A DNA stretch of 64,000 bases, taken from the NCBI GenBank assembly GCA_964500725.1, contig CAZCNP010000006.1:3634-67633 (forward strand). The letters run 5' to 3'. Numbering within the stretch: position 1 is the stretch's first letter; each line of letters opens with the position of its first letter. The stretch is from an uncultured Gammaproteobacteria bacterium. Lineage in GTDB: Bacteria; Patescibacteriota; Microgenomatia; Daviesbacterales; UBA10151. The translations under genes and the position numbers were made by a program. This document shows positions 430 to 28,500 of the stretch, one piece after another. The notes beneath the pieces were generated by a model that made no database searches, was not told the DNA's origin, and saw only the letters and a list, made by a program, of their open reading frames with translations.

Positions 430-1788
430 TCAAGTTTTTTGAGAAAGCCTAATATCAACCCTTTCCATATCTCTTGGGAAAAGACTAGCCTCTCTCACAT
501 TAGAAAGATTCAGAACATGCATCGTCACTCGCTCCAGTCCAAAAGAGAATCCTCCTTCTGGGGGCATACCAAATTCAAAAGCCTGAAGATACATTTTAAA
601 ACTATCAGTATTCATTCCCCTACTTTTAATACTAGCGACAAGCTGCTGATAATCATTAATTCTCTGACTACCACTTAAAATTTCCAAACCCCTGAATAAT
701 AAATCATAACTTAGACTATATTCTGGATTTTGGGGATCTGGCATGGTGTAAAAAGGTTTTGCTGCAGTAGGAAAATGGGTAATAGTAACAAAATCACTAT
801 TATGCTTATTTCTGGACCATTTACATAAATCAATTTCATCCTGTGGGGTTAAATCTTTTTCCTTTCTATTATCGCGCCCAAATTCTTTATAGATAACCTC
901 TTGAGCTTCTCTTAAACTCAGTCTTGGAATTTTTCCTGAAAGCACTTTTTCAACACTAAATTCAGTTAGAGTATCTTCACATTCTTCCTCAGCCACTTTT
1001 AACATTTTAACTGCCACCCCTTCTAGTATATCTAACAAGTCTGTAAATTTAATAAAGCCCACTTCAATATCCATCTGAGTGCTTTCTGTTAAGTGTCTTG
1101 TAGTGACTGAGGGTTCTGCCCTGTAAGCTTTAGCTATTGTAAAAACTCTTTCAAATACTGGTATAAGCATTTGTTTATACAGTTGCGGACTCTGAGACAA
1201 ATAAGCTTTATGTTCAAAGTAATCTACCTTAAAAACTTCCGCTCCACCCTCAGTTGCTCCTGCCACTATTGTCGGCACAACAATCTCCGTACAACCTAAT
1301 TCATAGGCTGCTTGTCTAAATCCGGCAAGCAAACTTGATTGGACTTTAAAAATAGCCTTTACCTTAGGATGGCGCAAAGTAAGCGAGCGATAATCAAGAA
1401 GTGTAGGTAATTGCAAATCTAACTCTTTTGCTCCCATATCAAAAGGCAATTCTGCTGCCTCAGATAATACCTCAATATTTTCTGCAGAAATTTCAATCTC
1501 ACCTGTAGGAATATTCTTATTGACCAAATGCTCGGGTCTTTTATTAACTTTACCAGTTATACAAACTACATCTTGAGGGTGCAAATCCGGAGCTATTTCC
1601 TTGGTAGCTACTACCTGTATTACAGCTGACCTATCAGATACATCCAAAAATAAAATTTTCCCATGATCCCTTCGCACTTGTACCCATCCGTAAATATTAA
1701 CCTGCTCGCCAACTTTTTTATTACAATCTAAAATTAAGGTTCTATCCATATCCTCTGCATCATAACAGGAGCGTGTATAAATTGACAA
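430..1788 (-). CDS. aspS: aspartate--tRNA ligase, archaeal/eukaryal-type class II
   Basis: LSQSPQLYKQML, motif 2 FRAE...TRHLTE and motif 3 GGFSFGLERV fit AspRS rather than AsnRS. Track start is TTG at 1788; in-frame ATG at 1749 (MDRTLILD) is the more likely start. Confidence 0.8.
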   Translation of the reverse strand: MSIYTRSCYDAEDMDRTLILDCNKKVGEQVNIYGWVQVRRDHGKILFLDVSDRSAVIQVVATKEIAPDLHPQDVVCITGKVNKRPEHLVNKNIPTGEIEISAENIEVLSEAAELPFDMGAKELDLQLPTLLDYRSLTLRHPKVKAIFKVQSSLLAGFRQAAYELGCTEIVVPTIVAGATEGGAEVFKVDYFEHKAYLSQSPQLYKQMLIPVFERVFTIAKAYRAEPSVTTRHLTESTQMDIEVGFIKFTDLLDILEGVAVKMLKVAEEECEDTLTEFSVEKVLSGKIPRLSLREAQEVIYKEFGRDNRKEKDLTPQDEIDLCKWSRNKHNSDFVTITHFPTAAKPFYTMPDPQNPEYSLSYDLLFRGLEILSGSQRINDYQQLVASIKSRGMNTDSFKMYLQAFEFGMPPEGGFSFGLERVTMHVLNLSNVREASLFPRDMERVDIRLSQKT

Positions 1789-1815
1789 GATGCAGGCTAG
1801 ATGCTAAGATTTAAA

Positions 1816-2117
1816 TACAATTAAATATTTTAAATCCGTTAATCTGGAAGGTTGGAACCAGGTAGGAGAGCAAAAGTATGCTACAGAGGCAAAACTGTAA
1901 AAGATCAGCAACATGTGTCGAAGTTTCGGAGCATGTCATGAATAAGGTTAACTTATTCCTTTTTGACATCCCTGGCGACAGGGATTTTTTAATGGCAATA
2001 AGTTAATAAAACAAGGTGGCACCGCCTAATCTTGTAAGCAGAGCTTTCCTTTTGCTTTGCACAACATAGACCCTTGTTAGATTACGAAATATCGTAGTCT
2101 GACAAGGGCTTTTTTTG
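1816..2117 (+). promoter_or_regulatory. T-box-like leader RNA (copy 1): stem III hairpin, T-box sequence, antiterminator and intrinsic terminator
   Basis: ACAAGG-UGGCACC-GCC (2011-2026) resembles T-box consensus AGGGUGGNACCGCG. AACAAGG (2010-2016) can pair CCUUGUU (2072-2078), which overlaps terminator CCCUUGU(2071-77)/ACAAGGG(2102-08)+U7. Stem III at 1970-1983. Confidence 0.5.
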
Positions 2118-2148
2118 TGGCAGAAACAAAAGGGAGGAGGTGATATTG

Positions 2149-2484
2149 ATGACAAGATGTGATATGGAACAATTTAATGAATTACTAGGTCAGACTATAG
2201 CTACAATAAATGAGAGTACCCATACTGTAACTGGTATCAATCTAAATGGCCATCCCGAACAAAGAGGAGTATACAAAGGCTTAACAAGAGAAGGCGAAAT
2301 CATTTTGATCCAAGATACTCTTGTTAATTCTCCAATAACCAGAGGTATGATTATTAGAGATAAGGTTATCGTAAAAACAGTAGGCCTAGGAAGAAGTAGG
2401 ATTTTAAGAAAAATAACTGGTATAGATCTTATGAAAGGCTTTCTTGGATGTCAGCGATATTTTCAAACAAATACAGAAGGATAA
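2149..2484 (+). CDS. hypothetical small protein; N-terminus resembles an AbrB/MazE/SpoVT swapped-hairpin motif; paralog of 26616..26828
   Basis: RBS AGGGAGGAGG at 2131-2140 then ATG at 2149 (track starts at GTG 2140). N-terminal motif EQFNELLGQTIATI is shared with the other T-box-associated ORF (MRQFDQVGQTVPTI). Confidence 0.45.
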   Translation: MTRCDMEQFNELLGQTIATINESTHTVTGINLNGHPEQRGVYKGLTREGEIILIQDTLVNSPITRGMIIRDKVIVKTVGLGRSRILRKITGIDLMKGFLGCQRYFQTNTEG

Positions 2485-2520
2485 ATCAGAAAAAATATGT
2501 TAACATAGATTCATTCTTTT

Positions 2521-4359
2521 ATGGAAAACTTGGAGAAAATTGCAAAACTTATCAGGTATTTTATTTTAGTTTCTACCACTGAGGCAGGCTCGGGGCATGT
2601 TACATCATCTTTATCTGCAACAGATCTAATGACTGTTTTGTTATTTGATGGATTTTTTAAATTTGATGTAAAAAACCCTCAAAATCCAAATAACGATAGG
2701 TTAATCTTTTCCAAAGGCCATGCCTCCCCTCTTTTCTATTCTCTCTTTGCTGCAGCTGGAGCAATTACTGAAACAGAACTTAAAACATTAAGAAAATTTG
2801 GCAGTAGGTTAGAAGGACATCCTACTATGCTGTTTCCCTTTACCGAAGCTCCTACTGGCTCTTTAGGTCAAGGTTTATCTATTGGATTAGGCATGGCACT
2901 TTCTGCAAAATATCTAGATAAATTGCCTTTTAAAACTTATGTTTTGTTAGGAGATTCCGAGATGGCAGAAGGCTCTGTCTGGGAAGCAATTCAACTAGCT
3001 GCACATTACCAATTAGATAATTTAATTGGAATTTTGGACGTTAACCGTTTAGGCCAACGAGGGCAAACAATGTATGGTCACAATATTAAAGATTATGAAA
3101 AAAGAATTGCTGCATTCGGGTGGCAGACAATAGCAATCGACGGGCACTCGCTAAAAGAAATCCGAGGAGCTTTTAAAAAAGCTCAAGGTATGAAAGGTGT
3201 TCCAATAATGATTATTGCCAAAACTTTAAAAGGCAAAGGTATTTCGTTTTTAGAAGACAAGGATGACTGGCATGGCAAAGCTTTAAAACCTGAAGAGCTA
3301 GAAAAGGCGCTAGCAGAATTAGGTCCTATTGATAAAAAGCTTACAGGAAAAATAACCATGCCCCCTAAATTTAAAGATCAGAAATTAAAAGCTAAAGTTT
3401 CAACCCAAGATTCAAAAACGAACTACCAACTAGGAGAAAACATTGCTACTAGAAAAGCTTATGGAAATGCCTTAGTTAGAATTTATCCTCAATTTCCTAA
3501 CCTGGTTGTGTTGGATGCAGAAGTCTCGAACTCTACTTTTGCAGATATATTTAAAAAAGCTTACCCGGAGAGATTTTTTGAAATGTATATTGCAGAACAA
3601 AACATGGTCGGCACGGCTTTGGGTCTAGCAAGACAAGATAAGATTCCTTTTGTTTCAACCTTTGCTGCTTTTTTTAGCAGGGCTTTTGATCAGATTCGGA
3701 TGAGTCAATACGCAGATACTAATATTAAGTTTATTGGCTCTCATGCTGGAGTATCAATTGGTGAAGATGGCGCTTCTCAGATGGGTTTGGAAGATATTGC
3801 TATATTTAGAAGCCTATTAAATAGTGTTATTTTATACCCTTCAGATGCTGTTTCCACTGAAAAATTACTTACTGAAGCTGCCAAACACAAAGGAAATGTT
3901 TATATTCGCACTACCAGAAAAGACACTCCAATTTTATATCCAAATAACGAACAATTTCCAATTGGCGGGAGCAAGATTTTAAAAAGTAGTAATAAAGATC
4001 TTGTAACTGTAATTGGAGCAGGCATAACTCTACATGAAGCTTTAGCTGCATATGAACAACTAGCTAAAGAAAATATCTTAATTAGAGTAATTGATCTTTA
4101 CAGCATCAAACCTTTAGATATTAAAACTTTAGTAAAGGCATCACAAGAAACACAAGCAATTATTACCGTTGAGGATCACTTCGAGCAAGGAGGCATAGGT
4201 GAAGCTGTTTCTTCTACTCTTTCTGGTCATAAGACAAAAGTGTATTCCTTGGCAGTTAGAAAAATGCCAAGAAGTGGAAAACCAGCTGAGCTTTTGGAAT
4301 ATGAAGAAATATCTGCAAGTGCAATTATACAAAAAGTAAAAGAAATTATTGCATTTTAA
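2521..4359 (+). CDS. tkt: transketolase
   Basis: 612 aa with GHxxSxxS TPP-binding N-terminal motif (SGHVTSSLSATDLM), GDSEMAEG, and pyrimidine-binding and C-terminal domains. Confidence 0.9.
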   Translation: MENLEKIAKLIRYFILVSTTEAGSGHVTSSLSATDLMTVLLFDGFFKFDVKNPQNPNNDRLIFSKGHASPLFYSLFAAAGAITETELKTLRKFGSRLEGHPTMLFPFTEAPTGSLGQGLSIGLGMALSAKYLDKLPFKTYVLLGDSEMAEGSVWEAIQLAAHYQLDNLIGILDVNRLGQRGQTMYGHNIKDYEKRIAAFGWQTIAIDGHSLKEIRGAFKKAQGMKGVPIMIIAKTLKGKGISFLEDKDDWHGKALKPEELEKALAELGPIDKKLTGKITMPPKFKDQKLKAKVSTQDSKTNYQLGENIATRKAYGNALVRIYPQFPNLVVLDAEVSNSTFADIFKKAYPERFFEMYIAEQNMVGTALGLARQDKIPFVSTFAAFFSRAFDQIRMSQYADTNIKFIGSHAGVSIGEDGASQMGLEDIAIFRSLLNSVILYPSDAVSTEKLLTEAAKHKGNVYIRTTRKDTPILYPNNEQFPIGGSKILKSSNKDLVTVIGAGITLHEALAAYEQLAKENILIRVIDLYSIKPLDIKTLVKASQETQAIITVEDHFEQGGIGEAVSSTLSGHKTKVYSLAVRKMPRSGKPAELLEYEEISASAIIQKVKEIIAF

Positions 4360-4488
4360 TTATTACTGCTGTATAATTTTTTAATTGTTATGAATATATT
4401 AAAACAAAGCAACTATTTTTGGTTTTATTTTACTTCCCCAAGGGAGGCTAGCTAAGGCTATTTAAAAATAAGCCAAGAGCTTGTTAAA

Positions 4489-4512
4489 CCTCCCAATTAG
4501 GGAGGTTTTTTT
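4489..4512 (+). terminator. intrinsic terminator after tkt
   Basis: CCTCCC-AATTA-GGGAGG followed by T7. Confidence 0.6.
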
Positions 4513-4535
4513 GTGAGAAAAAAGAGAAAATAAAT

Positions 4536-5357
4536 ATGTACAAAGTTGAAAGAATAGAAAGAAGCGATATAATAAGGCCAGACGAGTTTGCTGTTGCCGG
4601 TGGCCCATGTGCAATAGAAACAGAAAAACAAGCTTTCGCTGTTGCACAGTCTCTTTACGAGATGGAGATACGGATATACAGAGGACAATTATGGAAACCC
4701 CGATCAAGCAGAGATAGTTTTCAAGGCATAGGGCTTGCAGGAATACCATGGTTGAATAGAATTAAAAGAGATTTCGGTATGGTTATTGCTACAGAGATTG
4801 TAGATAAAGACCAGATAAAACCAACCATTGATGTTGTAGACATACCATGGATTGGATCAAGAAATATGCAGAATTTCGAGTTATTAAAGGCTATAGCTGA
4901 TGATGGAACAAACCGACCTGTAATATTAAAAAGAGGCGCATCTGCAACAATTAAAGAGTGGTTACAATCCGCAGATTATATAGGCAGAGAAAGAGTTATA
5001 CTGTGTGAACGTGGAGTAAGAACTTCTACAGACTCAACAAGATACACTCTAGATTTAAATGGGGCTCTGGTGGCAAAACATGATCACGGAATGCCTGTAA
5101 TAGGCGACCCTTCTCATCCGGCCGGCCGTCGTGATTTAGTTTTACCCCTTGCTCGTGCCATTGTAGCCGCTGGGCTGGATGGAATGGTAGTAGAAATACA
5201 TACCAATCCCGAACAAGCCTTATCTGACAAAGATCAACAAATTACTCCTGAGACTTTTCGTGAAATGTTAAGACAAACACGAGCAATATATAAAGTGTTA
5301 AATCCCCCGGTTTTAAATGGCCATCATACTAGACTTTTATCACCTGCATTAGCATAA
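4536..5357 (+). CDS. 3-deoxy-7-phosphoheptulonate (DAHP) synthase, class I-beta type (KDO8P synthase cannot be fully excluded)
   Basis: 273 aa, KPRSS...FQGIGL and GDPSH motifs of the I-beta DAHPS/KDO8PS fold. Adjacency to pheA favours DAHP synthase. Confidence 0.7.
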   Translation: MYKVERIERSDIIRPDEFAVAGGPCAIETEKQAFAVAQSLYEMEIRIYRGQLWKPRSSRDSFQGIGLAGIPWLNRIKRDFGMVIATEIVDKDQIKPTIDVVDIPWIGSRNMQNFELLKAIADDGTNRPVILKRGASATIKEWLQSADYIGRERVILCERGVRTSTDSTRYTLDLNGALVAKHDHGMPVIGDPSHPAGRRDLVLPLARAIVAAGLDGMVVEIHTNPEQALSDKDQQITPETFREMLRQTRAIYKVLNPPVLNGHHTRLLSPALA

Positions 5358-5362
5358 TTTTT

Positions 5363-5446
5363 ATGAATATCAAACAACAACTTACCAATATACCAAATAA
5401 GGAATTCTTCTTTTTTACTCCGCCAAAGGACGGGGGTCATTCTTAA
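5363..5446 (+). CDS. candidate Phe leader peptide (27 aa): MNIKQQLTNIPNKEFFFFTPPKDGGHS
   Basis: Small ORF directly upstream of pheA with four consecutive Phe codons (TTC TTC TTT TTT, 5405-5416), ending just before the attenuator hairpins. Confidence 0.5.
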   Translation: MNIKQQLTNIPNKEFFFFTPPKDGGHS

Positions 5447-5498
5447 CATTTAAGTTAAGAATATCAAAGAGACACCCCCGCCCAAAGCGGGGTTTTTT
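5429..5498 (+). promoter_or_regulatory. transcription attenuator (antiterminator/terminator) of pheA
   Basis: Terminator CCCCGC(5476-81)-CCAAA-GCGGGG(5487-92)+U6. Alternative pairing CGGGGGU(5431-37) with ACCCCCG(5474-80) sequesters the 5' terminator strand. Confidence 0.5.
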
Positions 5499-5507
5499 AA
5501 TAAAAAT

Positions 5508-6443
5508 ATGATTAATGAAACAGAGTTAAAAATTAATGATCATCCAATAGTAGTAAAACTTGCTCAAGACAGAACAAAACCTAGAGTAGCTTGTTTAGGA
5601 CCAGCAGGTACTTACACAGAAGCAGCCAGATATGAATTATTAAAAGATCATCTGGATAGGATGGATCAAGAATTTCTCCCTGCCAATGCTAAAGTAGTCC
5701 AACAAGTAGAAGCAGGTGATTTTGATATTGGTATTGTTCCTGTTGAGAATGCCATTGAAGGAGACGTTGTTGAAGTCTTAAGAGAACTAAACCATACCAA
5801 AGAAACTACTATATTGGGAGAAACGATTTTAGGCATCGATCATATGCTAATCGGTCAACCAGGATCTAACACAGAAGAAATCCGTTCTCATCCTCAAGCA
5901 TTAGCTCAATGCAGAAGTTTTCTTTTAGAGAATTATCCTCAAGCAAAACAAGAACCATCGCTTAGCACCACAGCTGCTGTTGAGTATGCTTTACAACATC
6001 CAAGCACGACAGCAATTGCTGGCAGAAGAGCAGCTATAGTTTATAACCTGCCTATTTTGGCGGAAAATATTGGGGATGTTAAAGGTAATTCCACCCGCTT
6101 TTTAATATTGGGCAGAGGCGAAACTGAGCCCACAGGTCAAGATAGCACCGCTTTAATCTTCGTTCCGAGAGGAGACCGCCCAGGCATTTTAGCCAGATGC
6201 TTAACTGCCCTTGCTTCTTATGGAATTAATTTAACCAAATTAGACTCCCGCCCTACTGGAGTAATGAGAGAATATGCATTTTGGATTACTTTAGATGGTC
6301 ATATCAAAGATGAAATGGTCAGGCGAGGAATAGATGATTTAAGAGATACCTATTGTTCGTCATTAAGGGTACTTGGTTCTTATAGGAAAGCAGAACTACC
6401 ACAAGGGGCGAAAGACCCCGGAGCTATCAATAATAGTGGATAA
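5508..6443 (+). CDS. pheA: prephenate dehydratase (PDT catalytic domain plus ACT domain)
   Basis: 311 aa with PDT domain, C-terminal ACT domain and the TKLDSRP motif. Confidence 0.85.
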   Translation: MINETELKINDHPIVVKLAQDRTKPRVACLGPAGTYTEAARYELLKDHLDRMDQEFLPANAKVVQQVEAGDFDIGIVPVENAIEGDVVEVLRELNHTKETTILGETILGIDHMLIGQPGSNTEEIRSHPQALAQCRSFLLENYPQAKQEPSLSTTAAVEYALQHPSTTAIAGRRAAIVYNLPILAENIGDVKGNSTRFLILGRGETEPTGQDSTALIFVPRGDRPGILARCLTALASYGINLTKLDSRPTGVMREYAFWITLDGHIKDEMVRRGIDDLRDTYCSSLRVLGSYRKAELPQGAKDPGAINNSG

Positions 6444-6532: not shown

Positions 6533-6634
6533 ATGTCAAAAGTTATTGTTGTAGATTTAAAAAAAGTTGAAATTTTAGTCAGCCTCCTTATTATGCTCCT
6601 TATTGGAGCATTTCTGGGAGGTCTTTTTAGATAA
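6533..6634 (+). CDS. candidate leader peptide / small hydrophobic peptide (33 aa): MSKVIVVDLKKVEILVSLLIMLLIGAFLGGLFR
   Basis: ORF covers segments 1 and 2 of the downstream four-segment attenuator. Run of Leu/Ile codons (CTC CTT ATT ATG CTC CTT ATT) at 6584-6604. No SD. Confidence 0.35.
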   Translation: MSKVIVVDLKKVEILVSLLIMLLIGAFLGGLFR

Positions 6635-6684
6635 AGTTTATCTAAAAGAAAGGAAATTAAGGCCTCCCAAATGGGAGGTTTTTT
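6582..6684 (+). promoter_or_regulatory. four-segment attenuator (two mutually exclusive hairpin sets) ahead of a three-gene hypothetical operon
   Basis: S1 CCTCC(6583-87):S2 GGAGG(6617-21)+UCUUUUU; S3 CCTCCC(6663-68):S4 GGGAGG(6673-78)+U6. S2 GGGAGG(6616-21) can instead pair S3 CCTCCC. Possible promoter TTGACA at 6473-6478. Confidence 0.45.
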
Positions 6685-6698
6685 ATTGGGAAAAGAAT

Positions 6699-7136
6699 AT
6701 GTCAACCATAGAACAAAGGAAACTATATTTAGGAAATACTGATAAACCTGATCCAACAGTATCTGCCCTTTTTGATAAAAGGGATCAATCTCGTGCGTCT
6801 ATACATCGAGAGCAAATAGCAACTAATCAATATGATCTAGCAGAAGAACGAAGACTTGCCAGAATAAAACGCAAGAGTAGAAAATCACATATTCGTCCCT
6901 CTTCGCCTATAAAAGAAGTTCAAACACCTACTATTGTTGAACCAATCGAAGACAGAATTGCTAGAATTGGTGCACTTAATGATTTGAGTTATGCGCTGGC
7001 TATGTTAAAAGCTGGAAGAAAATCAGGAGAGTTAAGCAGAAGAGAATTTACTGACTTACATCAAATTATTGCAGGTGATTACAGACAAAAACAAAGAGAA
7101 CATATGGAGCATATGTCTAAGAAAGGAGGAAATTAA
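6699..7136 (+). CDS. hypothetical protein (146 aa)
   Basis: ATG at 6699 (MSTIEQRKLYLG) after the attenuator. Track ORF from TTG 6603 runs through the terminator hairpins and is probably an over-extension. Confidence 0.5.
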   Translation: MSTIEQRKLYLGNTDKPDPTVSALFDKRDQSRASIHREQIATNQYDLAEERRLARIKRKSRKSHIRPSSPIKEVQTPTIVEPIEDRIARIGALNDLSYALAMLKAGRKSGELSRREFTDLHQIIAGDYRQKQREHMEHMSKKGGN

Positions 7137-7137
7137 A

Positions 7138-7440
7138 ATGACTTTAGAGTCAAAAAAAGGCACCACTTCACCTATCAATGGAGTAGATCCATCAAGCGTA
7201 TTTGATTATACTTTGCGAATTTATATTCCTATAGAAGAATATGAAGATCGCCTAGAAGAAGCACGCCAAGCTAGAGAGGCTACTGAAATAGCCTTAGCTC
7301 AAGAAATAGTTTCAAGACCATCTGCAAAACATACTACCACACAGGGAAGACGAAATGGTTACCATCGAAAAAATGGGGCAGAATCAACCCGTTTACAACA
7401 GCGGGGATCAATAAAAGGTTTTCAAACACCTAAACTATAA
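7138..7440 (+). CDS. hypothetical protein (100 aa)
   Basis: GGAGGA RBS then ATG 7138 (MTLESKKGTT); 2 nt after the stop of the previous gene. Confidence 0.5.
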   Translation: MTLESKKGTTSPINGVDPSSVFDYTLRIYIPIEEYEDRLEEARQAREATEIALAQEIVSRPSAKHTTTQGRRNGYHRKNGAESTRLQQRGSIKGFQTPKL

Positions 7441-17791: not shown

Positions 17792-18068
17792 GGGTGCCTA
17801 GGAAGTTAGTAAGCCAGATTCTGTTTCTCGATGATCATTTATCTAACGCTCCTTACTTCAACAAATGGGCAAGCAGCCCTGTTGGTTCTAGGATTGCAGC
17901 GGGGAGGATTGCCACGTTTCACCCGAGCATGACCCCGGTTCGTCACTGTTGCTCTAACTAGGCCTTACGGCTTCCAGCTTATGCTGGACACCCTGCTCTA
18001 TGCTGTCTGGACTTTCCTCTTAAGTAGTTTAAAGCTTCTTAAGCGATCATCCTTCTTCCTAGGCAGGT
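17792..18068 (-). ncRNA. rnpB: RNase P RNA (bacterial type-A-like, compact, about 277 nt)
   Basis: Minus strand GAGGAAAGUCCAGACAGCAUAGAGCAGGGUGUCCAGC (CR-I) ... GGGUGAAACGUGG ... ACAGAAUCUGGCUUACUAAC (CR-V). P1 is GCCUAGGAAG/CUUCCUAGGC. Confidence 0.85.
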
Positions 18069-22207: not shown

Positions 22208-23402
22208 CTCAAAACAAATACTTATATTAATTCTGCTCCTGACTGCTTTCCTGCGCTTTTTTCGCCTAGATTTTCCTAACAAATACGTCTTCGATGAAGT
22301 CTATCATGCCTTCACCGCTAAAGAATATTTAGCAGGACACAAAGAGGCTTGGGAATGGTGGACAACACCGCCGCCTGGGGTAGCATACGAATGGACACAT
22401 CCACCTTTGGCTAAAGAAATAATGACTATATCGATGTTTATACTAAACACCCGAGAAACCTGGGCTTATAGATTACCAGGAGCACTACTTGGAATCCTGT
22501 CTGTTTATTTAGTTTACCTGCTAGGGCTTAAACTATTAAATAATCAAACTGCTTCCTTGCTAGCCGCGTTTGTCTTTTCTTTAGATGGATTAAATTTTGT
22601 TCAATCGCGTACAGGAATGAATGATATTTATTATGTTACCTTTTTACTGGGGAGTCTATTATTGCTGCTTAACAAAAGATTTATTCTTTCTGCAGTTTTA
22701 GCAGGACTTGCTCTTTCTTCTAAATGGGCAGCCGTTTATTCTTATCTGATATTTATTCCATTATTACTTTACAGTAAACAATACCGCTTCATTGGCTATT
22801 TTATAATCATTCCACCCATTATTTATTTTTTAAGTTATCTGCCATTTTTTCTACTTGGACATTCTCCGACACAATTTATACAACTACAACAACAAATGTG
22901 GTGGTATCATACCAGCCTTAAAGCTACTCATGATTATACTTCACCATGGTGGTCTTGGCCGCTCAATTTATATCCTGTTTGGTATTTTGTAGATTATCAA
23001 AAAGAAAGGGTTGCAAATATTTTTGCTTCCGGTAACCCAATACTTTTTTGGGTTGGCAGCATCGCCGTTATTCTAACTGTCATAGAATCAGTTAAGAAAA
23101 AAGTCATAAATCTATTCTTAATTTCTTTAGGATTTTTTGTATTTTGGTTACCATGGGCGCTTTCTCCTAGGATTATGTTTTTGTATCATTTCAGTCCTTC
23201 TATACCTTTCTTAAGCCTTGCATTAGGATATCAATTAAGTAATTTATTAAAACATAGAAACGAAAGAAGGCTAGCTTTTGTAATTCTTCTGCTGATAATT
23301 GTAACTTTTGCTCTGCTCTACCCCTTTATTACAGCTATTCATATTCCAAGGGAGTATGTTAAAGCATTCTTCTTATTTAATCTATCAAAAAATCCTTTTT
23401 AG
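22182..23402 (+). CDS. dolichyl-phosphate-mannose-protein mannosyltransferase-like (GT39/PMT family) membrane glycosyltransferase
   Basis: FDEVYHAFTAKEY (loop-1 DE motif) plus WTHPPLAKE; 406 aa polytopic. Confidence 0.7.
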   Translation: MNYLKKKISSKQILILILLLTAFLRFFRLDFPNKYVFDEVYHAFTAKEYLAGHKEAWEWWTTPPPGVAYEWTHPPLAKEIMTISMFILNTRETWAYRLPGALLGILSVYLVYLLGLKLLNNQTASLLAAFVFSLDGLNFVQSRTGMNDIYYVTFLLGSLLLLLNKRFILSAVLAGLALSSKWAAVYSYLIFIPLLLYSKQYRFIGYFIIIPPIIYFLSYLPFFLLGHSPTQFIQLQQQMWWYHTSLKATHDYTSPWWSWPLNLYPVWYFVDYQKERVANIFASGNPILFWVGSIAVILTVIESVKKKVINLFLISLGFFVFWLPWALSPRIMFLYHFSPSIPFLSLALGYQLSNLLKHRNERRLAFVILLLIIVTFALLYPFITAIHIPREYVKAFFLFNLSKNPF

Positions 23403-24181
23403 CTGCTGGCTGAAGAGTAATTTTTTAGAGCAAGTTCCCAGGCTTTATAAGAAAAATAAAATAAAATAAGGGTAAATGAAATTGCGTAAGCAATGAGCCC
23501 AGGAGAAAGTAGTCCCATTAAAGCTTTAGCTGGAAATGTCATCATAATACCCACAGGAATAATAAAAGTAATCAAACTTCTTATTGGTTCAACATAAACA
23601 TCAATAGGAACTCTACCCATCCCCACCAAATCTCTATAAACTAAAATTGCACTATCTATCTCAGTTGTTAATACTGCTAAAGATAGCACCAGTATATGAA
23701 AAGAAAGAATAATGAGAAACCCTAATAAGAGCATGAAGATATACTCACCAATATTTAATATATTGAGCGAATTTAATTTATTTACAAAATAAACAATAGC
23801 AGCAATTAGAGGGATTAACGTAATAAAATCCAACAAATCTGGTCCTGTTAGCAAAGATCTAAATAAAGGACTGATGGGTTTTATCAAATAAAAATCAAAC
23901 GTCCCAGATAAAACCTTGGGTCTAAATCTATAAACTTCACGAAATAGAAGTTGGGATAAAATATCTAGAAAATTAAAGGAGAGAAAAAATAATAAAACCT
24001 GATCTAAAGTATACCCTGCTAATACTTTTGTACTTTGTAATAAAATTACCAGTAAAAATATAAAGGTAGTAAACCTTAATATCTTTGCCAGCAAAAATAT
24101 TATTAGCCCCCACCTTATATTAAGTTGTATTTGAAAAGCAGCTGATGCAAATAACCACCAAAGTTTTAAATATCTTTTCAC
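23399..24181 (-). CDS. ABC-2 family transporter permease
   Basis: 260 aa, six TM helices, downstream of the ATPase. Confidence 0.6.
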   Translation of the reverse strand: MKRYLKLWWLFASAAFQIQLNIRWGLIIFLLAKILRFTTFIFLLVILLQSTKVLAGYTLDQVLLFFLSFNFLDILSQLLFREVYRFRPKVLSGTFDFYLIKPISPLFRSLLTGPDLLDFITLIPLIAAIVYFVNKLNSLNILNIGEYIFMLLLGFLIILSFHILVLSLAVLTTEIDSAILVYRDLVGMGRVPIDVYVEPIRSLITFIIPVGIMMTFPAKALMGLLSPGLIAYAISFTLILFYFSYKAWELALKNYSSASS

Positions 24182-24183
24182 TA

Positions 24184-24990
24184 TTAATTTCCTTCTGCGC
24201 TAAAATGACGAAATCCGCTACTAATCATTAGTTTCGTTAGAATAATAAGAGTTATAATCCAGGCAGAAATTATTGAAAACCCATACAAAATTTCTGCATT
24301 TCTCATTCCTCCTAAATATATTTTAGAAGGAAAATATATTAGATAAGGGAATGGTGTTATCATCAAAATATTAAATATTTCTCTTGGTAAGATATCTAAG
24401 GGAAACAATCCTCCACCTAAAGTTTCCAGTAATACCCCAATCAAAAATAATGGCCCCCAAGAATTTTCCATCCAAAAAGCTGTCAAAGAAATTAAAAAAT
24501 TTATACAAAAATAGATAACGAGCCCCCCAGCAATTGCAAAAATAAAATATGCTAAAACTTGTATATTTGTTTGAATTATAACTGCAGGCTTTAATAGAAA
24601 AACTAATACGGAAACTTCCCCAATATAAAATAGGATATTAAAAAGCTTATCAGCTATATCCCGCGCTAAATAATATTTTACAAACCCAAGTGGCTTTATT
24701 AAAAAGTTAACTACACTCCCACTATTTATTGAGTCTATTAAATCCGTTACTCTTGTAGATAAAACAATTGCCCGAATCAAAGCAGCAATTAAAATATAAG
24801 TCAGTATAGATGAAGCAGTGTAGCCGAAGATTTGCTTTTGAGACTGAAAAACACTCCACCAGATAAAATACACTAAAAGAAGTTGCATCACAGACCTAAA
24901 TCTCCACAAAACAAAATTAAGTCTATATATTAGATTTTGCTGCCAAGCTATTCTAAAAACAGATATATATTTACCCATCAGATTTACCAA
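24184..24990 (-). CDS. ABC-2 family transporter permease
   Basis: 268 aa, six TM helices. Confidence 0.6.
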   Translation of the reverse strand: MVNLMGKYISVFRIAWQQNLIYRLNFVLWRFRSVMQLLLVYFIWWSVFQSQKQIFGYTASSILTYILIAALIRAIVLSTRVTDLIDSINSGSVVNFLIKPLGFVKYYLARDIADKLFNILFYIGEVSVLVFLLKPAVIIQTNIQVLAYFIFAIAGGLVIYFCINFLISLTAFWMENSWGPLFLIGVLLETLGGGLFPLDILPREIFNILMITPFPYLIYFPSKIYLGGMRNAEILYGFSIISAWIITLIILTKLMISSGFRHFSAEGN

Positions 24991-25291
24991 ATACCCAAGG
25001 TGTTTCCTTTTTATCTTTTTGCACCTTTGGACGATACTTTAATATCTTGTTAACCCTTACCACAGTATCTGTCCCAACACCAACCATTTTTGCAATTTTT
25101 CTAACCGGTAACCCCTTCTCTAAGAGACTTCTAATTTGAAACCGGTTCCTTAGCATCTTCCATTCTGATAAGGTTAATAATTCCTTTAAAATTTCTGTTG
25201 GCACTTCAATATCTTTACCCTGCCCTGGCTTACTCACAGCTAAGTTACCTTTCTTCTTTATTACTGAATATTTGTCTGACGATATCCTCAA
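24971..25291 (-). CDS. TrpR-like YerC/YecD family HTH protein
   Basis: LTLSEWKMLRNRFQIRSLLEKGLPVRKIAKMVGVGTDTVVRV matches the YerC/YecD signature. Track start is TTG at 25291; GTG at 25239 would avoid the 47-nt overlap with the ATPase. Confidence 0.5.
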   Translation of the reverse strand: MRISSDKYSVIKKKGNLAVSKPGQGKDIEVPTEILKELLTLSEWKMLRNRFQIRSLLEKGLPVRKIAKMVGVGTDTVVRVNKILKYRPKVQKDKKETPWVFGKSDG

Positions 25292-26234
25292 TTGCAGGCT
25301 CTTCTATTGTAAGATCAGCAATTTCAAATTGAGATAAAAGCTGGCTGGTTTTATCAGCAATTTTGCTCTTTTCTACTTCCAGGCTTACCTGATCCTCAAA
25401 GTGTTGTACTATTTTACCAATATTTTTTAACTTATTTAAATCAAATCCTTCTCTTATATCAGCTTTTATTAACTTATAAGGCGCAAATTTATTAACTATT
25501 TTTTCTAACGAACCATCATATATTATCTTACCCTTATTAATAACAATGACCCTTTTGCAAAGCTTTTCTACATCTCCCATGTAATGAGAGGTTAGTATTA
25601 TCGTTGCTTTAAACTCTTCATTATAATCTTTTATAAAATCCCGCATATTTTGCTGAGCTATTACATCAAGACCTATTGTTGGTTCATCTAAAAATAAAAC
25701 CTTTGGAGAGTGAAGTAGTGCTGCTATCAATTCGCATTTCATCCTCTGCCCTAAAGATAGCTTTCTAACAGGAACCGTTAAAATATCCTCCACTCTGAGC
25801 ATTTCTGACAACTTCTTAACATTGTCTCTAAAAGATTCCTCATCAATTTCATAAATCTCCTTATTTAGAATAAAACTATCCATCGCAGGCAAATCCCACC
25901 ATAATTGATTTTTCTGACCCATGATTAAAGAAATATTTTTCTGAAATTCTTTTTCTCTTTTAAAGGGTTCTTTACCAAAAACCTCTATTTGTCCTGAGGA
26001 AGGATATAAAAGACCTGATAGAACTTTTAAGGTTGTTGTTTTGCCAGCCCCGTTAGGTCCAATAAAACCAACCAACTCTCCCTCTTCTATGGTAAACGAA
26101 ACTCCATCTACAGCTTTAACATCGCTGTATTTTCTACTTATTAAAGATTTTAAAGATCCTAACAGTCCTGGCTCTTTTTGAAATATAGAATAATACTTTT
26201 TTAAATTATTAACAGAAATAATAGATTTGGACAT
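25245..26234 (-). CDS. ABC transporter ATP-binding protein
   Basis: Walker A GPNGAGKTT, signature LSLGQRMK, Walker B LFLDEPT. Confidence 0.85.
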   Translation of the reverse strand: MSKSIISVNNLKKYYSIFQKEPGLLGSLKSLISRKYSDVKAVDGVSFTIEEGELVGFIGPNGAGKTTTLKVLSGLLYPSSGQIEVFGKEPFKREKEFQKNISLIMGQKNQLWWDLPAMDSFILNKEIYEIDEESFRDNVKKLSEMLRVEDILTVPVRKLSLGQRMKCELIAALLHSPKVLFLDEPTIGLDVIAQQNMRDFIKDYNEEFKATIILTSHYMGDVEKLCKRVIVINKGKIIYDGSLEKIVNKFAPYKLIKADIREGFDLNKLKNIGKIVQHFEDQVSLEVEKSKIADKTSQLLSQFEIADLTIEEPAIEDIVRQIFSNKEER

Positions 26235-26291
26235 AGTCTAATTTTAGTCTAGTAAGAAAATTAAAACAACAAAAGAAGACTTTTTTGGAGG

Positions 26292-26564
26292 TTATTTAAT
26301 TAATCTTTTTAAGGTTTTACCTGCAGTAAACCCTGGAGTTTTTTTGTTAGGGATTTGAATAGTTTCACCAGTTTGAGGATTTCTTCCTCTTCTTGCTGCT
26401 CGGGATCTTATCAGAAATGTACCAAACCCTGTAATAACTACCTTCTCTCCTCTTACCAAACCATCTCTGATTAAATTAAAGGTAGCATTGACTGCATCAA
26501 CTGAGGCTCTTTTTGTTAAATTTGCTTTCTTGGCAACTTTTTCTATTAATTCATTTTTTGTCAT
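26292..26564 (-). CDS. hup: DNA-binding protein HU
   Basis: MTKNELIEKVAKKANLTKRASVDAV...GFGTF...RAARRGRNPQTGE. ATG at 26564; the track version is extended at the 5' end. Confidence 0.85.
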   Translation of the reverse strand: MTKNELIEKVAKKANLTKRASVDAVNATFNLIRDGLVRGEKVVITGFGTFLIRSRAARRGRNPQTGETIQIPNKKTPGFTAGKTLKRLIK

Positions 26565-26615
26565 ATGAATATGGATAAATTTACCAAATGTTCTCCTGTT
26601 TAGCAAGCCCCAAAT

Positions 26616-26828
26616 CTATATTCCTTGCATCTTCTCTTTAAGTTTAAACTCCAGAAACTCTCTCACTCTTTTATCGGGTTGATCCTCTTTACCAAAGGCT
26701 TTAACTAATGCATAAGTAAATGTCTCAACTCTATCTGCAGGGACGCCCAATCTTTCCACCAAACTTTCAATTGTGGGAACAGTTTGACCAACCTGATCAA
26801 ATTGTCGCATTCCATTTCTTTCTAACAT
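26616..26828 (-). CDS. small AbrB/MazE/SpoVT-like protein (70 aa), directly downstream of T-box-like leader copy 2
   Basis: GAGGAGG RBS then ATG 26828 (track start 26849 abuts the terminator U-tract). MRQFDQVGQTVPTIESLVERLGV parallels AbrB RKVDELGRVVIPIELRRTLGI. Confidence 0.45.
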   Translation of the reverse strand: MLERNGMRQFDQVGQTVPTIESLVERLGVPADRVETFTYALVKAFGKEDQPDKRVREFLEFKLKEKMQGI

Positions 26829-26849
26829 TTTTCCTCCTCTCTTTGACAT

Positions 26850-27113
26850 AAAAAAGCCCTTGTAAATCCCTAAGATATTCTTAGAAACTTACAAGGGCCT
26901 TCAAAAGGCGGTGCCACCTTGCTTTAAGTTTTTACATAAAAAATCCTCCAATTACGGAGGAGTACTGTAGAAACTTAATCTTACAGCGCTCCGTTGCCGA
27001 CACGCTTATTGTATTTATACAGTTCAATTTCTGTCACAGTATTTCTTTGCCGACTGACCTGTGCAGCTTGTCTATTGCGATAGACTCAAACGCTTTTAAA
27101 ATATTTAATTGTT
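26850..27113 (-). promoter_or_regulatory. T-box-like leader RNA (copy 2) with canonical antiterminator (A1 / UGGNACC bulge / A2) overlapping an intrinsic terminator
   Basis: Minus strand CAAGG-UGGCACC-GCC-UUUUGAA-GGC-CCUUGU (26921-26891), then terminator GCCCUUGUAA...UUACAAGGGC+U6 (26898-26850). Stem III CCUCCGUAAUUGGAGG at 26959-26944. Confidence 0.55.
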
Positions 27114-27144
27114 GATAATAGTATAACAGGAGAAAGTTAGAGTG

Positions 27145-28500
27145 TCAAACAGTCATGGTACTTTCAGTATAACGTGTTTCTCTAACTGCTGTTATTTTAA
27201 CAGCTCCTGGCACCATTACTTCTTTAGAAATTCGCTCAGCTATATCATGAACAAGCTTTGGCAGCTCATCATCTGAAATTCTCTCTGGAATAACAATAAC
27301 TCTTACTTCTCTTCCTGCTTGCACTGCAAAAGCTTTCTCCACTGCATCAAAAGAATTAGCAATATTTTCTATATCACCCATTCTTTTTATATAATCTCCA
27401 ACATTCTCATGTCTGGCTCCGGGCCTTCCTCCAGATATAGAATCAGCAATATATACTAAGATTGACTCCACAGCAGAAAAAGGCTTATCTTCATGATGCT
27501 CTGCTATACAATTGATTACCTTCTCCGGCAGATTAAATTTCTTAGCAAGCTGTACTCCTTTTTCAACATGAGTACCTTCATCTCCTTCTGTCACAACTTT
27601 TCCTATATCATGTAGCAAGCATCCAAGCCTTACCACATTCACATCTGCTCCAATCTCCTTTGCCAAAGCAATACCAATTTGGGTTTCCTCTTGAGTATGC
27701 AAAATTAAATTCTGTCCATAAGAGTATCTGTATTTAAATCTACCAATAATATCAATAAGCTCTACTGGCAAATTATAAACTCCTACATCATGACACAGCT
27801 TTTCTCCTGCCTCTCTCATTAACTTGTTAATATCCTCTTGCGTTTTTTCAACAATTTCTTCTATTCTTTGAGGTTGAATTCTGCCATCTTCCATCAACCT
27901 TTCTAAAGAAACTTTGGCAATCTCACGCCTTACTGGATCAAAGGAAGAAAGTATTAAAGTATCTGGAATTTCATCATCCATTACTACATCAACACCTGTA
28001 GCCTGCTCAAAAGTTCTCACATTTCTACCTTCTTTACCAATAATCCTGCCTTTCATTTCTTCATCAGGCAGTTTTACTTTTGAGGTAGTAAACTCTGAAA
28101 TATAATCTGTAACTCCATGTCGCATTGCATCTGCTAAAATATCTTTAGCTTTTTCATCAGCCGTTATTTTTATTTCTTCCTCAGCTTCTTTAATCTTTTT
28201 GGAAATTTCACCAGCAAGTTCCTGGTCTAAATTTTCCAAAAGAATCTTTTGAGCTTCATCTTTTGATAAGGAGGAGGCTTTTTCTAGTTTAGAAACTAAC
28301 TCTTTCCTTGTTTTCTCAAGTTGCTCTAATTTATCATCAATTAATTTTTGTTTTTCAGAAATTTGCCTTTCTCTTTCTTCTAAAATACCTTCTCTTTTTG
28401 CTAGCTCTGCTTCTTTCCTAACAAAATCTCCTCCTGCTGAAGGACTAGTTTGTTGATATGATTGCTGGCTAGACGAAATCGGCTTAAATGTTCTCTGCAT
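27145..28500 (-). CDS. rny: ribonuclease Y (KH + HD domains; no N-terminal TM)
   Basis: N-terminal coiled-coil region, KH domain, and HD motif LLHDIGK. Confidence 0.8.
   Translation of the reverse strand: MQRTFKPISSSQQSYQQTSPSAGGDFVRKEAELAKREGILEERERQISEKQKLIDDKLEQLEKTRKELVSKLEKASSLSKDEAQKILLENLDQELAGEISKKIKEAEEEIKITADEKAKDILADAMRHGVTDYISEFTTSKVKLPDEEMKGRIIGKEGRNVRTFEQATGVDVVMDDEIPDTLILSSFDPVRREIAKVSLERLMEDGRIQPQRIEEIVEKTQEDINKLMREAGEKLCHDVGVYNLPVELIDIIGRFKYRYSYGQNLILHTQEETQIGIALAKEIGADVNVVRLGCLLHDIGKVVTEGDEGTHVEKGVQLAKKFNLPEKVINCIAEHHEDKPFSAVESILVYIADSISGGRPGARHENVGDYIKRMGDIENIANSFDAVEKAFAVQAGREVRVIVIPERISDDELPKLVHDIAERISKEVMVPGAVKITAVRETRYTESTMTV

What the first reader, a model, noticed from the sequence alone, without database searches (positions are those of the whole stretch)
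2149..2484. New T-box-associated small-protein family: two paralogs with an AbrB/SpoVT-like N-terminal motif (second copy at 26616-26828)
The two ORFs directly downstream of the two leaders share an N-terminal motif: MEQFNELLGQTIATI versus MRQFDQVGQTVPTI.

The differences fall mostly at synonymous or third-codon positions, which argues for protein-level conservation. The motif resembles the swapped-hairpin DNA-binding signature of AbrB/MazE/SpoVT (RKVDELGRVVIPIE).

The C-terminal regions differ (111 versus 70 aa). A duplicated regulatory RNA plus a homologous small putative DNA-binding protein looks like a conserved module, possibly an amino-acid- or tRNA-responsive transcription factor or an autoregulated pair.
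Basis: partly seen in the sequence, partly recalled or inferred. Interest (0 to 1): 0.7.

Follow-up and report, generated by a model that had tools for sequence, protein, structure and literature searches.

The report
Two T-box-controlled uncharacterised small proteins
Two small genes just behind tRNA-sensing RNA switches in a Daviesbacteria (CPR) genome are real, conserved proteins of unknown function from two unrelated families, not AbrB-type DNA binders, and their shared opening motif is the least conserved part of them.

Summary
Both ORFs exist as described: 2149-2484 (+, 111 aa) and 26828-26616 (-, 70 aa). Each is the first cistron behind a promoter, a T-box leader with terminator, and a strong SD.

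The shared N-terminal motif is real (p about 1e-4 by shuffling). The interpretation mostly fails:
- Pfam, NCBIfam, PDB, PHROG and PADLOC give no AbrB/MazE/SpoVT signal.
- The ORF2 model is three helices, with the motif in a coil.
- The 'GQT[IV].TI' string is absent from all relatives.
- In the ORF1 ortholog pair, the motif region evolves at dN/dS about 0.95.
- Profile-profile comparison finds no relation between the two ORFs (prob 0.2%).

Part of the idea survives. Each ORF belongs to its own small, unannotated family that recurs behind T-boxes of one specificity:
- ORF1 family: 8 sequences. Four of the five members with known context sit behind Trp (UGG) T-boxes.
- ORF2 family: 5 sequences, all behind Arg (CGC) T-boxes. 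Three of the four relatives sit upstream of argF (two directly, one with a 150-aa ORF between).

This genome has lost trpE-A and argF from these operons but kept the small genes. Function is unknown. The nearest analogy is T-box-induced anti-TRAP.

The T-boxes themselves are unusual: an ultrashort Stem I combined with an intrinsic terminator.

The parts
1782..1810 (+). Promoter of operon 1 (TTGACA, 17 nt spacer, TAAGAT, TG-extended), divergent from aspS
   Evidence: The same promoter sequence is conserved upstream of the T-box in L084 and L090.
1835..1867 (+). Ultrashort Stem I of T-box leader 1: K-turn-like base, 5-6 bp helix and terminal loop AAGGUUGGAA. The proposed specifier UGG (Trp) is at 1853-1855, followed by A
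   Evidence: Across 22 loci with this loop, 93.5% of cells pair and 6 of 7 pairs show compensatory changes. In the window copy the K-turn GA..GA is replaced by AA..UA.
1817..2116 (+). T-box leader 1. T-box sequence AAGGUGGCACCGCC at 2013-2026; terminator 2071-2108 plus a U-run
   Evidence: Rfam T-box 19.3 bits, E 0.066. Terminator. Alignments to leader 2 and to the L082 leader. Relative to the ortholog in L213, the antiterminator loop carries a 36-nt insertion.
2149..2484 (+). ORF1: 111-aa first cistron (SD AGGAGGTGAT at 2134-2143). Member of an unannotated family of about 110-120 aa
   Evidence: Homologs are P0123-P0126, P0128, P0129 and the L193 ORF. Invariant residues: Q55, T57, G79, G97, F98, C101.
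2521..6443 (+). Downstream genes of operon 1: transketolase, DAHP synthase and prephenate dehydratase-ACT
   Evidence: In relatives, trpEGD(C/F)BA lie between the same T-box and tkt.
27120..27148 (-). Promoter of operon 2 (TTGACA, 17 nt spacer, TATACT)
27066..27093 (-). Ultrashort Stem I of T-box leader 2: GCGUUUGA, then helix GUCUAU, loop CGCA, helix AUAGAC, then AAGC. The proposed specifier CGC (Arg) is at 27079-27077, followed by A
   Evidence: L082 has GUCUAC/GUAGAC, a compensatory change. CGCA or GUCGCGA loops precede argF, argS and argH in other loci.
26849..27113 (-). T-box leader 2. T-box sequence at 26920-26907; terminator 26899-26855 plus a U-run
   Evidence: Rfam T-box 24.7 bits, E 0.0022. 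Terminator. 77% nt identity to the argF leader in L082.
26616..26828 (-). ORF2: 70-aa first cistron (SD GAGGAGG). Member of an unannotated family of 67-97 aa predicted to be three helices
   Evidence: alignment A4.
26593..26613 (-). Remnant of the 3' end of argF (ornithine carbamoyltransferase), directly after the ORF2 stop codon
   Evidence: Homology to L082 resumes at L082 position 1284, which lies inside the last 21 nt of argF.
23399..26564 (-). Genes downstream of ORF2: HU, ABC ATPase, TrpR/YerC-like protein and two ABC-2 permeases

Best explanation
ORF1 and ORF2 are genuine protein-coding first cistrons of two T-box transcription-attenuation operons in a Candidatus Daviesbacteria genome.

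Leader 1 reads tRNA-Trp through a UGG triplet in the terminal loop of a truncated Stem I. Leader 2 reads tRNA-Arg through a CGC triplet in the same position. When the cognate tRNA is uncharged, the antiterminator should form instead of the terminator. The transcript then extends into a strongly SD-led small ORF and on into the downstream genes.

The two ORFs belong to two separate, lineage-restricted and unannotated families. The ORF1 family is tied to Trp T-boxes. The ORF2 family is tied to Arg T-boxes and normally sits in front of argF. In this genome the biosynthetic genes have been deleted (trpE-A in operon 1, argF in operon 2), but the small genes were kept.

The N-terminal motif they share is not a DNA-binding signature. 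It lies in the most weakly constrained part of the proteins. It is best explained by the T-box leader, translation start and first roughly 20 codons behaving as one module that was copied or converted between the two loci of this genome.

Most likely role (inferred, not shown): small starvation-induced accessory or regulatory proteins specific to the Trp and Arg pathways, acting through protein-protein contacts in the way T-box-induced anti-TRAP does in Bacillus.
For: T-box identity:
- Both leaders carry the conserved T-box sequence and mutually exclusive antiterminator and terminator helices.
- Stem I hairpin covariation: 93.5% of cells paired, 6 of 7 pairs compensatory, 0 of 500 shuffles as high.
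- The loop triplet matches the regulated genes with no cross cases. UGG precedes trpE in 8 loci and trpS in 5. CGC precedes argF in 4 and argS in 1.
- The same promoter plus a Trp T-box precedes trpE in L090.

Coding status:
- ORF1 has 6 significant relatives among 1.84 billion representatives; the best is E 1.6e-18.
- Its ortholog P0123 sits in the same slot between T-box terminator and tkt.
- dN/dS is 0.45 overall and 0.28 for codons 73-111. The C-terminal GFLGCQRYFQTN is identical although dS is about 1.
- The ORF2 family has 4 relatives at 29-39% identity with a conserved core (LGVP.DRV ... FLEFK), each the first ORF after a T-box.

Separate families: hhalign probability 0.1-0.2%.

Gene loss.

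Module idea:
- DNA similarity between the two loci runs from the -35 box to about codon 20 and then stops.
- The ORF1-ORF2 N-terminal score is 38. ORF1 against its own family scores 21, and ORF2 against its own family scores 16-20.
- An 'MVE[RK]' / GAAAGA start recurs in first cistrons of three different families.
- Published analysis concludes that T-boxes propagate as semi-independent modules (PMC2494555).

Analogy: anti-TRAP is a small protein induced through a Trp T-box (PMC10327191).
Against: - No function has been shown. No fold or family match gives a hint.
- The ORF1 structure model is unusable (pLDDT 36.7).
- All four ORF2 relatives and one ORF1 relative (L193) were retrieved by a T-box DNA pattern, so their T-box association is circular. 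Only P0123, P0124 and P0125 were found independently. Of these, P0125 sits next to a TrpR/YerC-like gene with a sequence gap where a leader could lie.
- ORF1 evolves fast: 46% aa identity where tkt is 86% and HU is 100%.
- The window's leader 1 has a degenerate K-turn and a 36-nt insertion in its antiterminator, so it may no longer switch.
- DNA identity in the shared 5' coding tract is only about 55-65%. A conversion event, if real, is old, and chance cannot be fully excluded (0.24% of real N-terminus pairs).
- The 'M..E[RK]' enrichment used a pattern chosen after seeing the data.
Confidence: 0.6

Rival explanations
1. First reader's reading. ORF1 and ORF2 are paralogs of one new family of AbrB/MazE/SpoVT-like DNA-binding regulators. 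The shared N-terminal motif forms the swapped-hairpin DNA-binding element.
For: There is a 12-14 residue string resemblance to RKVDELGRVVIPIE, and a real above-chance similarity between the two N-termini.
Against: - No hit to AbrB/MazE/SpoVT in Pfam or NCBIfam at E<=10, nor in PDB profile searches.
- The ORF2 model (pLDDT 78.6) is three helices, with residues 1-19 in a coil.
- The G-x-T-[IV]-x-T-I part is absent in every relative of either ORF.
- dN/dS is 0.95 over ORF1 codons 1-25.
- hhalign finds no relation between the two families.
Confidence: 0.03
2. Translated spacer. What matters is that a ribosome loads at a strong SD immediately after the terminator and carries translation into the downstream genes, giving coupling and protection of the readthrough mRNA. 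The peptide products are largely dispensable, which explains the fast, family-poor evolution.
For: - Different, unrelated small ORFs occupy the same slot: a 57-aa ORF in L084 and several other small-ORF clusters behind T-boxes.
- L082 and L090 do without a small ORF.
- The stop codons of ORF2-family genes abut or overlap the next start codon.
- The N-terminal part of ORF1 evolves near neutrally.
- The conserved purine-rich start region is shared across families.
Against: - Family-level conservation of specific residues persists at saturated synonymous divergence. Examples are GFLGCQRYFQTN, QDT and the invariant Cys in ORF1, and LGVP..V and FLEFK in ORF2.
- Each family is specific to one amino-acid specificity.
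- Both genes were retained in the window genome after the adjacent biosynthetic genes were deleted.
Confidence: 0.2
3. Decay products. The ORFs are non-functional leftovers created when trpE-A and argF were deleted, and they are on their way out.
For: - Both operons in this genome have lost their biosynthetic genes, and a 21-nt argF remnant is visible.
- Leader 1 shows a degenerate K-turn and an insertion.
- The word-indexed search of 5.8 billion proteins found only self hits.
Against: - Neither ORF resembles TrpE, other Trp enzymes or OTCase in any frame (TrpE N-terminus).
- Both have full-length homologs elsewhere that coexist with intact argF or other genes.
- The ORF1 ortholog is intact with dN/dS<1.
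Confidence: 0.07

Closest known systems
Anti-TRAP (rtpA/yczA) of Bacillus subtilis
   Same: A small protein whose synthesis is switched on through a tRNA-Trp-sensing T-box leader. It acts as a pathway-specific regulator (PMC10327191; PMC2494555). ORF1-family genes are likewise small genes inside Trp T-box operons.
   Different: There is no sequence relation: Pfam scans of ORF1, ORF2 and their relatives return nothing. From my own knowledge, anti-TRAP is a 53-aa zinc-binding, Cys-rich trimer that targets TRAP. ORF1 has a single conserved Cys and is about 110 aa. No TRAP gene was seen, and the phylum is CPR. An Arg-specific counterpart like ORF2 has no known parallel.
AbrB/MazE/SpoVT swapped-hairpin DNA-binding domain (PF04014)
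   Same: Only a short string resemblance at the N-terminus.
   Different: No profile hit. The motif region is predicted as coil or helix rather than a beta-hairpin. The motif is not conserved in relatives.
Actinobacterial T-box riboswitches with 'ultrashort' Stem I (ileS type; Sherwood et al. 2015, as reviewed in PMC7583486)
   Same: Stem I is truncated and lacks the distal tRNA-elbow platform. In the long form, a Stem II and a IIA/B-like region with an F-box-like CUGUAA sit between Stem I and Stem III.
   Different: The actinobacterial leaders control translation by sequestering the SD. The review states that transcriptional T-boxes generally require a long Stem I. Here an intrinsic terminator follows, and a roughly 135-nt short form lacks Stem II and Stem III altogether.
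Canonical T-box leader (Rfam RF00230)
   Same: The 14-nt T-box sequence, the antiterminator with a UGGN bulge, the competing terminator, the K-turn at the base of Stem I, and a specifier matching the regulated genes.
   Different: Scores are 19-27 bits against a gathering score of 93. There is no AG bulge or distal loop platform.

Membership tests
AbrB/MazE/SpoVT (swapped-hairpin) | Significant match to the family profile (Pfam PF04014 and relatives, NCBIfam, or solved AbrB/MazE/SpoVT chains) | tested here: not met
   No such hit at E<=10 for either ORF, for family members, or in PDB profile searches.
AbrB/MazE/SpoVT (swapped-hairpin) | Beta-alpha-beta swapped-hairpin fold beginning at the motif | tested here: not met
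AbrB/MazE/SpoVT (swapped-hairpin) | Signature (G-R-x-x-[IV]-P-like hairpin) conserved among orthologs | tested here: not met
   'GQTIATI' and 'GQTVPTI' are absent from all 7 ORF1 relatives and all 4 ORF2 relatives. dN/dS is 0.95 over ORF1 codons 1-25.
One common family for ORF1 and ORF2 (paralogy) | Detectable homology beyond the first roughly 20 residues | tested here: not met
   BLASTP E=11. hhalign A5 against A4 gives probability 0.1%, and A6 against A4 gives 0.2%.
T-box leader (RF00230) | Rfam gathering score | tested here: not met
   19.3 and 24.7 bits against 93.
T-box leader (RF00230) | Conserved T-box sequence inside an antiterminator that competes with an intrinsic terminator | tested here: met
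   AAGGUGGCACCGCC is followed by CCCUUGU...ACAAGGG plus a U-run in both leaders. The same layout occurs in more than 120 metagenome loci.
T-box leader (RF00230) | Stem I with a K-turn and a specifier triplet that matches the regulated genes | tested here: met
   Covariation of the hairpin. UGG goes with trpE and trpS, and CGC with argF, argS and argH, with no cross cases. The window's leader 1 has a degenerate K-turn.
T-box leader (RF00230) | Distal Stem I platform (AG bulge and distal loop) that binds the tRNA elbow | tested here: not met
   The Stem I helix is 4-7 bp and capped directly by the specifier loop.
T-box leader (RF00230) | Readthrough dependent on uncharged tRNA | not testable with these tools
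   Needs in vitro transcription with tRNA-Trp and tRNA-Arg.
Anti-TRAP | Sequence match to the anti-TRAP family or its zinc-binding Cys motifs | tested here: not met
   No Pfam or NCBIfam hit. The ORF1 family has one invariant Cys, and ORF2 has none.

The most novel reading that the evidence does not exclude
The ORF1 and ORF2 families are amino-acid-specific, T-box-induced regulators: functional analogues of anti-TRAP for Trp and, for the first time, for Arg. Candidate-phyla-radiation bacteria would use them to couple tRNA charging to enzyme, regulator or transporter activity. They are delivered by a previously undescribed class of transcriptional T-boxes that work with an ultrashort Stem I.
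Probability: 0.25. Interest if true: 0.75.

Novelty: new variant of a known kind. Interest (0 to 1): 0.5.

Why it matters
T-box regulons are normally made of tRNA synthetases, biosynthetic enzymes and transporters. The only well-known T-box-controlled small regulator is anti-TRAP.

This locus shows two unannotated small-protein families that ride as first cistrons on Trp- and Arg-specific T-boxes in CPR bacteria. They are retained even after the neighbouring biosynthetic genes were lost. That makes them candidates for starvation-signalling proteins in organisms whose regulation is almost unknown.

The leaders also combine an intrinsic terminator with a Stem I too short to reach the tRNA elbow. 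The field's review literature treats this combination as atypical. These leaders fall far below Rfam's threshold, so they are missed by standard annotation.

Tried and rejected

2. The motif as a relic of the TrpE N-terminus. Daviesbacteria TrpE starts MKNLLKIKISQKPTYIKF and lacks the motif. Rejected.

3. ORF2 as a replacement for argF. Revised: relatives carry both the small ORF and argF. The window simply lost argF, and L082 lost the small ORF.

4. ORFs as remnants of trp genes or OTCase in other frames. tblastn found nothing.

5. P0127, a 4421-aa hit. It is a DUF11 repeat protein and the match is spurious.

6. The L214 281-aa protein as a fused relative of ORF1 or ORF2. hhalign and shuffle tests were not significant. 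Only a roughly 24-nt 5' coding stretch is shared with ORF2.

7. PHROG and PADLOC (phage or defence origin). No hits.

8. The word-indexed homolog search returned only self hits for both ORFs. This wrongly suggested orphans until the exhaustive HMMER search and the T-box-anchored metagenome scan found relatives.

9. The genome-contig scan with tkt found no T-box or ORF1 relative next to tkt in 80 species representatives.

Full report
**What is there**

The window is part of contig JACQIW010000012.1 of a Candidatus Daviesbacteria MAG.

At 2149-2484 (+) lies a 111-aa ORF preceded by a perfect 10-nt SD. At 26828-26616 (-) lies a 70-aa ORF preceded by GAGGAGG.

Each ORF is the first reading frame after the same three elements:
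- a sigma-70-type promoter (1782-1810; 27148-27120);
- a leader of 265-300 nt;
- a long intrinsic terminator (2071-2108; 26899-26855).

Downstream of ORF1 come transketolase, DAHP synthase and prephenate dehydratase. Downstream of ORF2 come HU, an ABC ATPase, a TrpR/YerC-like protein and two ABC-2 permeases.

**Are the leaders T-boxes?**

Rfam does not call them at its threshold. T-box scores are 19.3 and 24.7 bits against a gathering score of 93. The defining parts are nevertheless present.

- **T-box sequence.** AAGGUGGCACCGCC sits in an antiterminator whose 3' side is also the 5' arm of the terminator.
- **Stem I shape.** In these loci Stem I is reduced to a K-turn-like base (GCGUUGA ... 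GAGC) and a 4-7 bp helix capped by a conserved loop.
- **Covariation.** For the AAGGUUGGAA-type loop, 93.5% of cells pair and 6 of 7 pairs show compensatory changes. None of 500 shuffles reaches the observed covariation score, and slid controls pair at only 18-58%.
- **Specifier matches the genes.** UGG-containing loops precede trpE (8 loci) or trpS (5 loci). CGC-containing loops (CGCA or GUCGCGA) precede argF (4) or argS (1). argH markers also occur downstream of CGC-type leaders (L187; L113 by eye). No case is crossed.

Leader 1 therefore carries a Trp specifier (UGG, 1853-1855). Leader 2 carries an Arg specifier (CGC, 27079-27077). tRNA-dependent switching is inferred, not shown.

**Comparative context**

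Operon 1:
- In a Daviesbacteria relative (L090), the same aspS-divergent promoter and a short Trp T-box drive trpE-G-D-CF-B-A-tkt-aro genes. Other relatives also have trpA directly before tkt.
- The window and its sister species (L213, tkt 86% aa identical) have no trp genes in that place. They carry an ORF1-family gene between terminator and tkt.
- A third lineage (L084) has an unrelated 57-aa ORF in the same slot.

Operon 2:
- A relative with an identical HU protein (L082) has the orthologous leader (77% nt). There it is followed by argF and then HU.
- The window retains only the last roughly 21 nt of argF after the ORF2 stop codon.
- Metagenome loci show what is probably the older layout: T-box(CGC), then a small ORF2-like gene, then argF. 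These are L160, L095 and L187. In L187 a 150-aa ORF, probably a GNAT acetyltransferase (not checked against Pfam), lies between the small gene and argF.
- So the window lost argF, and L082 lost the small gene.
- No OTCase or trp genes occur elsewhere in the 64 kb.

**Are the ORFs real genes, and of what family?**

The word-indexed search found only self hits. More sensitive searches did find relatives.

ORF1:
- It has six significant relatives among 1.84 billion representatives (E from 1.6e-18 to 6e-4, 39-47% identity), plus one in the T-box loci (L193).
- The eight-sequence alignment has invariant Q55, T57, G79, G97, F98 and C101. It also has a nearly fixed C-terminal GFL.C.RY motif.
- Against its ortholog P0123, dN/dS is 0.45 (dS about 1.0). 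The neighbouring tkt gives 0.10, and HU has no amino-acid changes.
- By segment, dN/dS is 0.95 for codons 1-25, 0.40 for 26-72 and 0.28 for 73-111.

ORF2:
- It has four relatives of 67-97 aa at 29-39% identity. They share a core: LV..LGVP.D.V ... aLG ... FLEFK.

No member of either family hits Pfam, NCBIfam, PHROGs, PADLOC or any PDB sequence.

Contexts found independently of the T-box pattern:
- P0123 lies between T-box terminator and tkt.
- P0124 is the second gene of a short Trp T-box operon.
- P0125 lies next to a TrpR/YerC-like gene, with a sequence gap upstream.

**The shared motif and the AbrB idea**

The two N-termini do resemble each other more than chance. The score is 37, with p about 1e-4 by shuffling, and it is matched by 0.24% of real N-terminus pairs. 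DNA similarity between the loci runs from the -35 box to about codon 20 and then stops.

There are 3 synonymous against 6 non-synonymous codon differences, plus 2 indels.

The two halves of the motif behave differently:
- 'EQF..LL' is a conserved N-terminal feature of the ORF1 family, present in four members.
- 'GQT[IV].TI', the part that looks like AbrB, occurs only in the two window ORFs. It is absent from the ORF1 ortholog and from every ORF2 relative.

ORF1 and ORF2 score 38 against each other at the N-terminus. Against their own families' N-termini they score only 16-21.

The two families are unrelated by profile-profile comparison (probability 0.1-0.2%).

Two are met: no AbrB fold, and the motif does not recur. 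The third, lack of coding signal, is not met.

**How the motif most likely arose**

T-box leaders are known to spread as semi-independent modules (PMC2494555). Here the module seems to include the SD and the first codons.
- Starts such as ATG-GTA-GAA-AGA (MVER/MVEK/MLER) recur in first cistrons of the ORF2 family, in the ORF1 ortholog P0123, and in an unrelated 281-aa gene in L214.
- That L214 gene also shares GAAAGA..GGAATGNNACAATTT with ORF2.
- The 'M..E[RK]' start is found in 13.6% of first cistrons against 3.0% of control ORFs. The pattern was chosen after seeing the data, so this is only indicative.

The extra 'GQT..TI' similarity is confined to this genome. It lies in a region that otherwise drifts almost neutrally. 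I read it as an old exchange (gene conversion or recombination) between the two leader-proximal regions. Chance is not fully excluded.

**Function**

This part is inference. Several observations argue that the products matter:
- Both families are kept under purifying selection in their cores.
- Each is tied to one amino-acid specificity.
- The ORF2-family gene's stop codon abuts or overlaps the start of the next gene, which is argF in L160 and L095.
- Both survive in a genome that deleted the neighbouring biosynthetic genes.

The closest known logic is anti-TRAP, a small regulator induced through a Trp T-box (PMC10327191). There is no sequence or compositional relation to it.

A rival is that translation of a leader-proximal ORF is what counts, rather than its product. 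Support for this comes from unrelated ORFs occupying the same slot, and from relatives that lack one.

**Side finding**

These leaders pair an ultrashort Stem I with an intrinsic terminator. A roughly 135-nt short form has no Stem II or III at all. The review literature associates ultrashort Stem I with translational actinobacterial T-boxes and says transcriptional ones generally need the long Stem I (PMC7583486). I found no paper on T-boxes in CPR/Patescibacteria in the library.

The window's own leader 1 has a degenerate K-turn (AA..UA in place of GA..GA). Relative to its ortholog, it also has a 36-nt insertion and a mismatch in the antiterminator. It may be losing function.

**Verdict**

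- The AbrB and paralog interpretation is not supported.
- The idea of T-box-associated small proteins is supported, but as two distinct uncharacterised families.
- Interest is moderate for the proteins. It would be higher if their regulatory role or the unusual T-box class is borne out.

Noticed in passing
window 1817-2116 (+) and 27113-26849 (-); loci L082, L084, L090, L091-L210, L213, L214: A class of T-box leaders, abundant in groundwater and CPR metagenomes, has an ultrashort Stem I (K-turn plus a 4-7 bp helix, with the specifier in the terminal loop) yet ends in an intrinsic terminator. A roughly 135-nt short form lacks Stem II and Stem III. All score far below Rfam's T-box threshold (19-27 bits against 93).
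   Followed up: partly
window 1835-1867 and 2027-2070: The window's Trp leader deviates from its relatives. The K-turn GA..GA is replaced by AA..UA. There is a 36-nt insertion in the antiterminator loop, and a G-to-A change weakens the inner antiterminator helix relative to L213. The switch may be decaying after loss of the trp genes.
   Followed up: partly
window 2116-2521 compared with L090 3540-10000; window 26593-26613 compared with L082 378-1304: There is lineage-specific gene loss inside T-box operons. trpE-G-D-CF-B-A are missing between leader and tkt. argF is deleted except for its last roughly 21 nt.
   Followed up: yes
window 24971-25291 (-); L215 3-215; L082 2499-2810: A TrpR/YerC-like gene sits inside the ABC-transporter operon downstream of the Arg-type T-box and ORF2. 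Another TrpR/YerC-like gene lies directly upstream of an ORF1-family member (P0125) in L215. A functional link between these small proteins and YerC-like regulators is possible but untested.
   Followed up: no
L214 142-987; L160, L095, L096, L213 ORF starts; window 26828-26790: The first codons after the SD (ATG GTA GAA AGA ..., giving MVER/MVEK/MLER) recur in first cistrons of three unrelated protein families behind these T-boxes. The L214 281-aa gene shares GAAAGA..GGAATGNNACAATTT with ORF2. This is either a conserved translation-start module or a shared ancestral 5' end.
   Followed up: partly
L084 3886-4059; loci L106/L173/L184, L109/L178, L148/L201, L175/L194, L166: Several other small ORF clusters of 57-135 aa, none with an obvious similarity to a known family, are the first ORF after T-box terminators. 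L084 has an unrelated 57-aa ORF in the slot that ORF1 occupies. L166 has a LysW-like carrier protein ending in EDWGE.
   Followed up: no
window 2149-2364 compared with 2365-4044 (against L213): Divergence from the sister species is mosaic. The terminator is 94% nt identical. The 3' third of ORF1 plus tkt is 83% identical. The SD-proximal spacer and the first roughly 72 codons of ORF1 are too diverged for blastn, and include a roughly 100-nt indel.
   Followed up: partly
window 17794-18062 (-): The RNase P RNA (bacterial type A) is compact at 269 nt, with several helices deleted relative to the 367-position model. This is typical of reduced CPR genomes.
   Followed up: no
window 6603-7440 (+): Two overlapping ORFs (177 and 123 aa) downstream of pheA have no Pfam hits. 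It is unknown whether they belong to the T-box operon.
   Followed up: no
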